Below are positions 25,474 through 28,954 of a stretch of 64,000 nt of DNA, piece after piece (the stretch's first letter is position 1; each line of letters starts with the position of its first letter). The notes beneath the pieces are model-generated. The model ran no database searches, was not told the origin of the DNA, and saw only the letters and a list, made by a program, of their open reading frames with translations. Source of the DNA: Raja brachyura (taxonomy: Eukaryota); contig OY740781.1 in the NCBI GenBank assembly GCA_963514005.1, positions 113,584,001 through 113,648,000 on the forward strand. Reading direction: 5' to 3'. Both the position numbers and the translations under genes were made by a program.

Positions 25474-25919
25474 TCTCAAGCTAATAATTTGTTTCTTCCT
25501 TCTGAAAGATAGAGATATGAATAAACTAGTTATTATATATAGCTAACTCATCGTCTTAGAGTCATACATCATGGAAAAATGATCTTTGGCCCAACTCCTC
25601 AATGCTGATCAATGTGCCCCATCTAAATTAGTTCCCTTTGCCTGAGTTTGGCACACATACCTCTAAACCTTTCTACCCATCTAGGTGTCTTTTAAATGCT
25701 ACTAGACCAAGTGGGACCCGTTGGGTCCTGTCCCCTTAACGCGCAGTTGTGGGGGGTGGTGGCCTGCGGCATCACACACACACACTAACCACCCCCCCCC
25801 CCCCCCACACACACACACACTAACACTCCCTTGATATTATAATAATATTATTCATTCGCTCTTATTCCCCCATCCTCCGCCCTATCCATTCACGCATAGC
25901 CCCCAACTGAGCAGGCGTG

Positions 25920-26706
25920 GCTAAAGAGGGAGAGGGAGAGGATAGAGTGAGGGGAGTGGGTAGAGAGGGAGAGGGACGGGAGTAGAGATTGAGGCGTGGT
26001 GGGGGGGGTGCGGCATCACAGGGGAGGGCTGGTCCCCGAACGCAATACACAGCACTCACCTATAGATCCCAATACTCACCACTCCCTAGAGAGTGATGGG
26101 GGTAGAGAGGGAGCGGTGTTGGAGAGGGTGGGGAAGCGAGGGGGCAGAGAGGGGCAGAGAGGGAGGTGGAGGGGATAGATAGAGAGTGGGGAAGAGAGGG
26201 AGGGGAGGGGGTAGAGAGGGAGGGTAGAGGGAGATGGAGAGAGGCAGAGGGGAATGGGGTAGAGACCTGGAGTCAGAGAGAGAGGCAGAGTGAGAGGGCA
26301 GCAAGAGAACGGGCAGATACAGATAGGACAGAGAGGGCAGAGAGAGAGTGAGGTCAGAGAGAGGGAGAGGGCAGAGAGTGAGAGAGGGCAGAGAGTGAGA
26401 GAGGGCAGAGAGTGAGAGAGGGCAGAAAATGAGAGAGGGCAGAGAGTGAGAGAGGGCAGAGAGAAGGCAGAGAGGGCGGGCTGAGAGAGGGCAGAGAGGG
26501 CGGGCAGAGAGGTAGAGGAAATGGGGGGGTAGAGATGGAGGGGAGGGGGTAGAGATGGAAGGGATGGGGAGATGGAGAGGGGCAGAGAGAGAGGGGGCAG
26601 AGAGAGTGAAAGGGCAGAAAGAGAGGGGCAGAGACAGAGGGCAGGAAGGGGCAGAGAGGGAGAGGGAGAGGGAGAGGGGGAGGGAGAGGGAGAGGGAGAG
26701 GGAGGC
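25920..26706 (+). repeat. GA-rich low-complexity/minisatellite tract (gagagggcagagagt units)
   Basis: Directly visible purine-rich tandem units. Confidence 0.9.
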
Positions 26707-26709
26707 AAA

Positions 26710-27060
26710 GGTGCACAGTAGAGAGCTTGCTGACCGGTTGCATTGTGGCTTGGTTCGGCAACTTGAGCGCACTGGAGAGGTAAAGACTACAAAATGTAGT
26801 AAGCACTGCCCAGTCCATCATCGGCTCTGACCTTCCTTCCATCAAGAGGATTTATCGCAGTCGCTGCCTCAAAAAGGCTGGCGGTATCATCAAAGACCCA
26901 CACCATCCTGGCCACGCACTCATCTCCCTGCTACCTTCGGGGAGAAGGTACAGGAACCTGAAGATTGCAACGGGCAGATTCAGGAATAGCTACTTCCCCA
27001 CAGCCCTCAGGCTATTAAACCTGACTCAGACAAAACTCGAATCGACTCGACTCGACGCCT
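26710..27060 (+). mobile_element. Rex1/Babar-like LINE 3' fragment inside the Helitron
   Basis: Encodes IIKDPHHPGH.L.SLLPSGRRYR...T.RFRNSYFP; short-repeat tail. Confidence 0.75.
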
Positions 27061-27089
27061 AACGGACACAAGCTCCGTCCTGCGCTGAG

Positions 27090-27159
27090 CTTGCTGCGGG
27101 CCGGATAACATCTCGTGGCGGGCCGGATGTGGCCCGCAGGCCATAGTTTGGAGACCCCC
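27090..27159 (+). mobile_element. hAT (Charlie-like) terminal remnant
   Basis: gcgggccggatgtggcccgcaggccatagtttggagacccc, similar to the end of the hAT MITE at 38180-38248. Confidence 0.6.
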
Positions 27160-27700
27160 GTCCTGGACGCAGAGCTTGCCGCTGCTGTCACCCAGAAACT
27201 CGTAAAGGCCGACCTGGACTTCAAAGGAGGGGCCTTTCCACTTGATGTACAGGTTCTTGTCGTTATCCTCCCGGAAGGTGAGGGTCTCCTTCAGGGTGTA
27301 GTAGGCCACTGCCAGCACATTACCGAGCGAGACGTTTTTAAACCTCACCATCTGACGAATGTTGTCGTAGTTGGGGATATTGATGCCGTCTGGGATGCCA
27401 CTCTCAGCGAAGGTGAGCACGTCTACGGAGGTGAAGTCGAGCTTGAGGAATCGGTCCTTCTCAAAGGGCTGGGGCCAGGGTAGCTGGGGCATCAGCCACT
27501 CAGCAGAGGCCACCAGCCGGGTGAACTTGGCACATGTCCTTGTTCAACACCGCCTCACAAACCCTTCAAACTTCCCTCTGGAGCCATAGGGGTCACGGTA
27601 ATGAAGCCGATGTTACTCTCCACCATGGGCACCTCATCCCGAATCCAGTGCTTGGAGCCCTCCTTGTGTGCGCGGAGCTGAACGTGCGTGGCCGAGCTGG
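27160..27700 (-). pseudogene. DPP3: Processed dipeptidyl peptidase 3 fragment (intronless, frameshifted, zinc motif degenerate)
   Basis: [102 protein letters not shown] is replaced by YEFLGD (27187-27204). Confidence 0.95.
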
Positions 27701-28174
27701 TTGGAGTGCTGGGGGGGGGGGGGGGGGGAGCGGGTAGAGAGGGAGAGGGAGGTGAGGTGGGTAGAGAGGGAGAGAGGGAGAGGGGCAGAGAGGGAGGGGG
27801 TTAGAGAGAGGAGGTAGAGTGGGGGGGAGGGAGGGTAGAGATGGAGAGGGCGAGGGATGGAATAGGTTGGAATGCTGGAGTGTCCCTCGCACCTGGATCA
27901 TGCGAATGTATTGCGACATCAGTTGGCATTTTTTCCTTCAAAATTAGAGCGTTGAAAACTTTTAATATTTTGAAGCTGTTTTTAGAAGGTTAATAACAGA
28001 AGAAATATAGGTTGAAATGCGACGGGAAGATATGTATCCGGTCAGGGTAGAAAATTTAAGTAGCATGTGTGCAAATGGGAAGGCTGTGGCCTAGCATTTG
28101 GAAGAAGATACAAATTAAGGAGATTAAAAGAAAGTCAACACAACCCTGGCCCACACAGACATTTAGAATATAAA

Positions 28175-28650
28175 GTCCCACCAGCATGGGATTGCATGCG
28201 TCTAGCGCGACCAAACGTGGGTGCTTGAGGCGTACAGCTGCGTGGGGCCGGTTCCACTTCGAACTGCAGAGGCGTATAGAGTTGTGCAGGGTTGGTCCCG
28301 ACATTATACTCATTAATCGAGCAGGAGGCGGGCTGGCTGAATTTGGACGTCGCACGCTGTTGGGCGGTGACATCATCACGCAACTGCATGCCGGGTGGTG
28401 ATGTCATCGCTCAACGCCACGCGCTAGGCATACGCCATCAAGACGCTGCGTACGACGTCAAGACGCCTGCGGGCCGACAGGCCTTTGGCACGCGGAATTT
28501 TCAAACAGTGCGATGTCGGGAACAGCCCTGCACAACTCCATACGCCTCCGCGGTTCGAAGTGGGACCGGCCCCGCGCGGCCCATACGCCTCAAGCGACCA
28601 CGTTTGGTCACGCAAGACACATGCAATCGCATGCGGGTGGGACAGGCCCT
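28175..28650. mobile_element. Palindromic PIF/Harbinger-type MITE inside the Helitron
   Basis: Long inverted arms; GTGGGACAGGCCCT terminus followed by TAA; left TIR partly lost. Confidence 0.75.
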
Positions 28651-28954
28651 TAAAGAATAATGGGAAGAGTTTTAGTACAATAGAGATAGATAGATTATAG
28701 TACCTGCATCAACAGCCTCCTCTGAGTGAAATGTTGCCTCTCAGGTTCCTTTGAAATCTGTCCCCTCTCACTTTAAATCTATGCAAAGTAAAATAATCAT
28801 TATAGAGAGCAAGAATATCAATGCATCTATAATGCATAGTTTTAAATGTAGTGCATAATCTACTCAGTCAGGTAATGAAAATGAAAACAATGTGCAACAA
28901 CTCGAGGTTCATTTTTCCAATATGCTTTATGTCTACACAGATCCCCTGCAGTCA

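What the first reader, a model, noticed from the sequence alone, without database searches (positions are those of the whole stretch)
25702..28694. Helitron carrying an intronless DPP3 retro-fragment inside TMEM150C intron 1
Seen: canonical Helitron ends on the minus strand (A|TC start, GGACCC-AAC-GGGTCC hairpin, CTAG|T end, no TSD). The two flanks rejoin into one CR1 3' segment, so the 3 kb is a single insertion unit. It contains about 540 nt of DPP3 coding sequence in the same orientation as the Helitron. Known: Helitrons capture host gene fragments, and retrocopy capture is reported in bats. Inference: this may be a chondrichthyan Helitron subfamily spreading a captured peptidase fragment, sitting 200 nt upstream of a TMEM150C exon acceptor.
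Basis: partly seen in the sequence, partly recalled or inferred. Interest (0 to 1): 0.8.

Follow-up and report, generated by a model that had tools for sequence, protein, structure and literature searches.

The report
Skate Helitron spreading spliced DPP3 fragment
A rolling-circle transposon in a skate-like fish genome picked up a spliced copy of part of the host's DPP3 peptidase gene and carried it to about thirty places, where the copies are decaying; this repeats, in a cartilaginous fish, a process already described in bats.

Summary
Window 25702-28694 (-) is a non-autonomous Helitron: A|TC start, hairpin, CTAG|T end, no target duplication, and paralogous empty sites. Its DPP3 piece (27160-27671, codons 292-464) occurs at 32 or more loci on 19 contigs; 28 of 32 share the Helitron 5' body. 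The cargo is host-derived (majority reading 167/172 aa identical to a skate DPP3) and spliced: a longer copy joins two exons of the intron-containing parent exactly, without a 1,089-nt intron. The original cargo spanned at least codons 233-673 with an internal inversion; deletions then made subfamilies. RepHel-coding Helitrons with near-identical ends exist, and a sister subfamily carries an unspliced SAC3-family exon. Corrections: about 0.8 kb of the 3 kb are later nested insertions; the family is old (median 6.5% from majority) and decaying neutrally (pN/pS 0.72, simulation 0.64 +/- 0.07), so it is not spreading now; no poly(A) or duplication tells retroposition into the Helitron from capture of an older retrocopy. 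Known kind (bat Helitron retrocopies); no skate report found.

The parts
25702..28694 (-). Non-autonomous Helitron, DPP3-carrying subfamily (whole insertion, with later nested elements)
   Evidence: empty-site paralogues L060, L032
28652..28694 (-). Helitron 5' terminus (A|TCTA TCTA TCTCTATTGTACTAAAAC); core shared with a RepHel-coding copy
   Evidence: 24 of 32 loci; RepHel copy on C4 starts A|TCTCTATTATATTAAAACTCT
28175..28650 (.). Nested MITE with long terminal inverted arms, private to this copy; one end lacks about 7 nt
   Evidence: arms 28175-28304 / 28513-28643 at 88%; other copies jump 28169-28175 to 28653; free relatives in L046, L058
27900..28169 (-). Helitron 5' body, shared by DPP3, SAC3 and cargo-less subfamilies
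   Evidence: 1520 first-look candidates, 40 scored; 28 of 32 DPP3 loci
27672..27899 (-). Pyrimidine-rich tract and GCTCGGCYCCGC repeats of the Helitron; the DPP3 junction lies in the last repeat
   Evidence: same junction in 22 copies printed; the repeat without DPP3 in L079, L095
27160..27671 (-). Spliced DPP3 coding fragment, codons 292-464, frameshifted
27038..27159 (-). One end of a high-copy repeat with a hAT-like terminus (name recalled); joined to DPP3 codon 464 in the subfamily
   Evidence: same junction in 11 of 32 loci; free copy on C775
26709..27037 (+). 3' piece of a LINE (Rex1/Babar-like, recalled), opposite strand, later insertion
   Evidence: free copy 90% alike in L061; no Pfam match; only L036 has a similar piece at this place
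26100..26708 (.). Low-complexity (CTCTCTGCC)n-type tract
   Evidence: similar tracts in sister copies and in the free hAT-like copy
25702..26100 (-). Helitron 3' body, hairpin (25714-25728) and CTAG end
   Evidence: RepHel copies carry AGACCC-AAC-GGGTCT and the same last 12 nt
28695..28790 (-). 5' half of the target repeat (CR1 3' segment, name recalled)
   Evidence: contiguous with the other half in L060, L032
25550..25701 (-). 3' half of the target repeat
25400..25501 (-). First coding exon of a Frag1/TMEM150-family gene (host; not part of the element)
   Evidence: AG/GT sites in sequence; further exons at about window 6.4 kb and G000:C1:113579307 and 113574957

Best explanation
A spliced (reverse-transcribed) piece of the host's DPP3 mRNA, at least codons 233-673 with codons 292-673 inverted against 233-291, entered the middle of one non-autonomous Helitron once. 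RepHel from autonomous Helitrons with the same ends then copied that element by rolling-circle transposition into A|T sites without duplication. On the way a hAT-like repeat landed in the inverted piece and internal deletions made subfamilies (cargo ending at codon 464 plus the hAT-like end; ending at codon 416), each copied further. The window holds one member of the 464 subfamily, which later gained a MITE and a LINE piece. The cargo is dead freight. Shown: ends, empty sites, copy number, host origin, splicing, inversion, subfamilies, neutral decay, matching RepHel ends. Inferred: that RepHel did the moving in trans, the order of events, and how the cDNA got in (LINE retroposition into the Helitron, capture of an older retrocopy, or templated repair; not resolved).
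For: 32 loci on 19 contigs with unrelated flanks; shared 5' junction and shared 3' junctions: 464+hAT-like in 11 of 32, 416 in 10 of 32 (read by eye). Exact exon-exon join across a 1,089-nt parent intron in L054; parent has 7 matched exons over codons 1-295. Majority reading 168/172 aa to P0002, 167 to Rhinoraja DPP3, 158-161 to other rays and sharks, 151-153 to chimaera and bony fish. Inversion junction in L054 and L055 at TGTGCA/TGCACA. RepHel: 96 Helitron_like_N matches, PIF1 at E 1e-60, a 10-kb copy on C4 with both ends alike. pN/pS 0.72 against 0.64 +/- 0.07 simulated; a 7-nt frameshift shared by 13 of the 20 rows covering it (by eye).
Against: Only 8 of 32 loci show both ends within the fetched stretch and 4 of 32 show no 5' body. 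The tree of the 5' body does not give one supported DPP3 branch (4 changes; 0% of bootstrap trees with 1; one origin not ruled out). The parent's exons past codon 295 are missing from the assembly (contig ends mid-exon), so splicing is shown directly only for codons 233-292, not for the window's own stretch. Only 1 of 9 RepHel loci showed the 5' motif and all 9 have broken frames. No poly(A) or target duplication was found around the cargo.
Confidence: 0.92

Rival explanations
1. One-off retro-insertion of DPP3 into a resident Helitron at this locus only.
For: Most family members lack DPP3; the cargo is internal, between Helitron sequences found in cargo-less sisters.
Against: 32 loci share the cargo and its 5' junction.
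Confidence: 0.01
2. The copies spread by segmental duplication or inside LINE copies rather than by rolling-circle transposition.
For: The window copy and L059 sit at the same A|T of the same CR1-like repeat.
Against: Other 5' flanks are unrelated right up to TC; L059 has a different internal deletion and different sequence beyond the repeat; 3' ends are followed by T in 10 of 11 with no duplication.
Confidence: 0.03
3. Entry route A: a LINE reverse-transcribed DPP3 mRNA directly into a Helitron (as in four bat cases), the inversion arose during insertion, and poly(A) and duplication were deleted later.
For: Cargo is internal; no free retrocopy was found (the search for codons 488-727 returned 5 matches at 3 loci, all Helitron-associated, none past codon 676).
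Against: No poly(A), no duplication, no 3' part; the order sense 292-673 then antisense 292-233 is not the plain twin-priming product of a sense mRNA (my derivation from the recalled model).
Confidence: 0.35
4. Entry route B: a processed pseudogene already in the genome was captured at DNA level, as the sister subfamily captured an exon plus intron of a SAC3-family gene.
For: The same family captures genomic DNA (exon end, GT donor and intron); in L054 about 330 nt of non-Helitron sequence follow the inverted piece; Thomas et al. class retrocopies without duplication this way (PMC4224331, passages).
Against: No donor retrocopy in this assembly (search is a lower bound); the L054 sequence is seen in one copy only.
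Confidence: 0.35
5. Some copies are kept as functional DPP3-derived genes or regulate the neighbouring TMEM150 exon.
For: L032 has pS 0.116, pN 0.047 and no stop; pooled ratio is under 1. The element lies 200 nt from an acceptor.
Against: The pooled ratio matches the neutral simulation; L032 has a frameshift near codon 327; the window copy is frameshifted and has lost the HELLGH motif (reads YEFLGD).
Confidence: 0.05

Closest known systems
Bat Helibat elements carrying retrocopies (Thomas et al. 2014, PMC4224331; passages read)
   Same: Non-autonomous Helitrons hold intron-less multi-exon host fragments and amplify them (four retropositions into Helitrons, 118 copies; TACC3 17 and 26 copies; TFPT 36 copies); deletion-derived subfamilies; two cargos in one element.
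   Different: Here a cartilaginous fish; no poly(A) or duplication; cargo has an internal inversion and comes from the middle of the coding region; no sign of selection.
Xenopus laevis Heli1Xen1 gene capture (PMC12001565; passages read)
   Same: Vertebrate Helitron1 non-autonomous copies share ends with the autonomous element and carry coding fragments copied up to 17 times.
   Different: Those are mostly 5' fragments, the family is young, and the passages read do not show spliced multi-exon cargo beyond one near-full transcript in two copies.
Canonical Helitron1 (TC ... hairpin CTRR, A|T target; definition recalled)
   Same: All terminal features and a Rep plus PIF1 partner.
   Different: Short weak hairpin (6 bp); extra TCTA units at the 5' end in several copies.

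Membership tests
Helitron1, non-autonomous | 5' TC start | tested here: met
   28694; motif in 24 of 32 loci
Helitron1, non-autonomous | 3' CTRR end after a short hairpin | tested here: met
   25702-25728; 11 of 32 loci; arms change together between subfamily and RepHel copies (GGACCC/GGGTCC against AGACCC/GGGTCT). Hairpin energy alone is not significant
Helitron1, non-autonomous | Insertion between A and T with no target duplication | tested here: met
   Paralogous empty sites L060, L032; T after the end in 10 of 11. No orthologous empty site was found
Helitron1, non-autonomous | RepHel-coding partner with the same ends | tested here: met
   C4 copy: Helitron_like_N and PIF1, 5' 19 of 21 nt alike, last 12 nt identical, last 30 nt 21/30 ungapped; 5' motif seen in 1 of 9 RepHel loci
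Helitron1, non-autonomous | Rolling-circle mobilisation by RepHel in trans | not testable with these tools
   inferred from shared ends
Processed (retro) copy of DPP3 | Exons joined without the parent's intron | tested here: met
   Exact join across a 1,089-nt intron in L054; for codons 296-673 the parent is absent from the assembly
Processed (retro) copy of DPP3 | Poly(A) tail and target duplication (LINE retroposition into the Helitron) | tested here: not met
   none at either cargo end in L054, L055 or the other copies; may have been deleted
Helitron-amplified retrocopy (bat type) | Several dispersed Helitron copies share the cargo and its junction | tested here: met
   32 loci
Helitron-amplified retrocopy (bat type) | Cargo-less exemplar giving an exact empty site inside the Helitron | tested here: inconclusive
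   L079 and L095 hold the 5' junction repeat without DPP3, but the 3' side of the original junction is not known
TMEM150C host gene, intron 1 | Paralogue identity and exon number | tested here: inconclusive
   Frag1 family met; 'C' rests on recall; no PDB match; upstream exon not sought

The most novel reading that the evidence does not exclude
The spliced DPP3 piece was written straight into the Helitron by templated repair from mRNA or cDNA, not by ordinary LINE insertion: both junctions use the same few bases at codons 291-292 (Helitron repeat to GCAC; codon 673 TGTGCA to TGCACA), with no poly(A) and no duplication. The family would then be a skate exon-shuffler that takes cargo from RNA and from DNA and joins them (L032 carries DPP3 292-534 followed by the SAC3-family piece).
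Probability: 0.2. Interest if true: 0.62.

Novelty: new member of a known kind. Interest (0 to 1): 0.42.

Why it matters
It extends Helitron amplification of spliced host sequence from bats to cartilaginous fish, with parent gene, autonomous partner, subfamilies and a second, unspliced cargo in one family. The nested deletions and the inversion give a readable history of one capture, useful for the open question of how Helitrons take up internal cargo, and the insertions are presence/absence markers for skate phylogeny. About thirty decayed DPP3 pieces can also mislead annotation where the true gene is only half assembled. There is no sign of a new function.

Tried and rejected
Hairpin energy as evidence: not significant. 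Parent exons past codon 295: not found by DNA, Pfam or protein search; contig C819 ends inside the exon, so I read this as an assembly gap, not gene loss. Free retrocopy outside a Helitron: none found. Horizontal origin of the cargo: rejected, nearest proteins are skate DPP3. Orthologous empty site: no joint skipping 25702-28694 among the 15 shown in four runs, 853 not shown; two contigs run only 17 and 14 nt into the 3' end, under the tool's 31-nt bar, so they are hints only. Expression: no RNA holder listed, which is no evidence either way. Tree of the 5' body: too little signal to show or reject one origin. Selection: pooled pN/pS within the simulation, which took its rates from the same data. 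Paralogue name of the host gene: Atlas gave Frag1 only at 0.89, a lead; PDB nothing. Earlier scan findings: none. Literature: Helitron+DPP3 0 papers; Helitron+skate+gene fragment 0; Helitron+chondrichthy 18 papers, 15 listed, none on cargo by title or abstract start; two searches returned mostly papers without Helitron; (twin priming) seen as listing only.

Full report
Observation. The features are in the sequence as stated. On the minus strand the element starts at 28694 after an A and ends with a 6-bp hairpin, 8 nt and CTAG at 25702 before a T. The hairpin alone is no better than shuffles. The two flanks match consecutive positions of one repeat in L060 and L032 with nothing duplicated. The stretch 27160-27671 encodes DPP3 codons 292-464 in two frames. 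An acceptor of a Frag1/TMEM150-family gene lies 200 nt past the element; that it is the C paralogue rests on recall, and 'intron 1' was not tested.

The family. A DNA search of the own genome gave 44 matches, which I grouped into 32 loci on 19 contigs, a lower bound. I fetched 10 kb at each of the 31 other loci. The Helitron 5' body precedes DPP3 in 27 of 32, and in one more just outside the fetch; 4 show none. The 5' motif is in place in 24 of 32 (one further script hit dropped), a 3' end in 11 of 32, both in 8; T follows the end in 10 of 11. Flanks differ right up to the ends. The 5' body has 1520 first-look candidates, 40 scored, so DPP3 carriers are a small subfamily. Of 14 fetched sisters without DPP3, 9 carry part or all of a segment that includes the end of an exon, its GT donor and intron from a SAC3-family gene on C32, that is, capture at DNA level. 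L032 carries both cargos.

The cargo. It is the host's: the majority reading of the copies matches P0002 at 168 of 172 residues, Rhinoraja DPP3 at 167, other rays and sharks at 158-161, chimaera and bony fish at 151-153. The parent gene on C819 has introns (7 matched exons over codons 1-295), but the contig ends inside the exon at codon 295 and the rest was not found. The longest copy, L054, runs to codon 673 and is followed by codons 292 to 233 in the opposite direction; L055 has the same junction. That inverted piece joins two parent exons exactly, leaving out a 1,089-nt intron. So the cargo is spliced; for the window's own codons this is inferred from its being part of the same molecule and from 380 uninterrupted codons. 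The inversion joins TGTGCA at codon 673 to TGCACA at codon 291-292, and the 5' junction with the Helitron falls at the same GCAC, inside a repeat that cargo-less sisters also have. The 'same orientation as the Helitron' may thus be a by-product of the inversion. No poly(A), duplication or free retrocopy was found.

History. A repeat with a hAT-like end (name recalled) sits in the inverted piece in L055 and is joined to codon 464 in 11 of 32 loci including the window; 10 of 32 end at codon 416; 6 share a deletion near codons 313-360 and 13 of 20 covering rows share a 7-nt frameshift (by eye). Shared lesions mean that copying went on after the frame was broken. Copies differ from the majority by a median of 6.5% (5.3% outside CpG), the closest pair is 94% alike, and pooled pN/pS is 0.72 against 0.64 +/- 0.07 in a neutral simulation using the same rates. 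The window copy has two later additions: a MITE at 28175-28650, at this place in 0 of 31 other loci, and a LINE 3' piece at about 26709-27037, with a similar piece only in L036. In run X10 (another organism, flanks about 6% different) one 197-nt contig spans MITE end, Helitron 5' end and 53 nt of flank, so the insertion is older than that split; several contigs with DPP3-cargo variants are present in 4 of 4 runs laid. No empty orthologous site was seen.

The partner. Helitron_like_N matches 96 places. Of 9 such loci fetched at 20 kb, one on C4 (about 319-329 kb, minus) has Rep and PIF1 between A|TCTCTATTATATTAAAACTCT and a hairpin-CTAG|T end; two more have that 3' end. The hairpin arms differ from the window's on both sides together, and the last 12 nt are identical. 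All 9 have broken frames. Mobilisation in trans is inferred.

Against. The tree of the 5' body neither shows nor excludes one origin. Most loci lack one end within the fetched stretch. The entry route is open: retroposition into the Helitron (0.35), capture of an older retrocopy (0.35), templated repair (about 0.2-0.25).

Comparison. In bats, Helitrons amplified retroposed mRNAs (four cases, 118 copies; TFPT 36; TACC3 17 and 26) and the authors class retrocopies without duplication as captured older ones (PMC4224331, passages; supplements not read). Xenopus Heli1Xen1 copied coding fragments up to 17 times (PMC12001565, passages). I found no paper on Helitron cargo in skates or on DPP3 in a Helitron (listings only, open-licence library only; repeat libraries such as Repbase or Dfam could not be searched).

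Verdict. Real, well supported, a new member of a known kind. Interest 0.42: a clean case in a new vertebrate lineage with a readable history and an odd inversion, but old, neutral and mechanistically foreshadowed.

Noticed in passing
L081, L085, L088, L090-L092 etc.; parent L124 (G000:C32:6963440-6963766, -): A sister subfamily of the same Helitron carries the end of an exon, the GT donor and intron of a SAC3/GANP-family gene (SAC3D1-like by recall): DNA-level capture, in 9 of 14 DPP3-less sisters fetched.
   Followed up: partly
L032 (G000:C5:64106600-64116599): One element joins DPP3 codons 292-534 to the SAC3-family segment, with a duplicated stretch of codons 497-534.
   Followed up: partly
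window 28695/25701 and L059 (G000:C3:68.63 Mb): Two DPP3 Helitrons of different subfamilies sit at the same A|T of the same CR1-like repeat on different contigs; suggests a preferred site.
   Followed up: partly
L032, L033, L043, L081, L082: The 3' end of another Helitron lies directly before the 5' motif (CTAG TATTATACT), i.e. Helitrons inserted into the 5' tip of others; several copies have extra TCTA units at the 5' end.
   Followed up: no
L036:2626-2767 and window 26709-27037: The same part of a LINE lies at the same place of the element in two copies but in opposite directions; shared insertion with later inversion or two insertions.
   Followed up: no
G000:C819:14799-34454 and C1568:19592-19882: The true DPP3 gene is only half assembled, on two small contigs, while about 30 decayed pieces lie on large contigs.
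   Followed up: partly
G000:C47 (3.8-4.6 Mb) and C13 (2.5-3.1 Mb): Clusters of Rep-domain matches with equal scores and stops at regular spacing: RepHel copies inside large tandem duplications.
   Followed up: no
window 28833-29700 (+): A decayed LINE endonuclease-like frame (RTE-like by recall; no Pfam match) just outside the 5' flank; a 33-nt perfect-spaced inverted repeat at 29964-30029.
   Followed up: no
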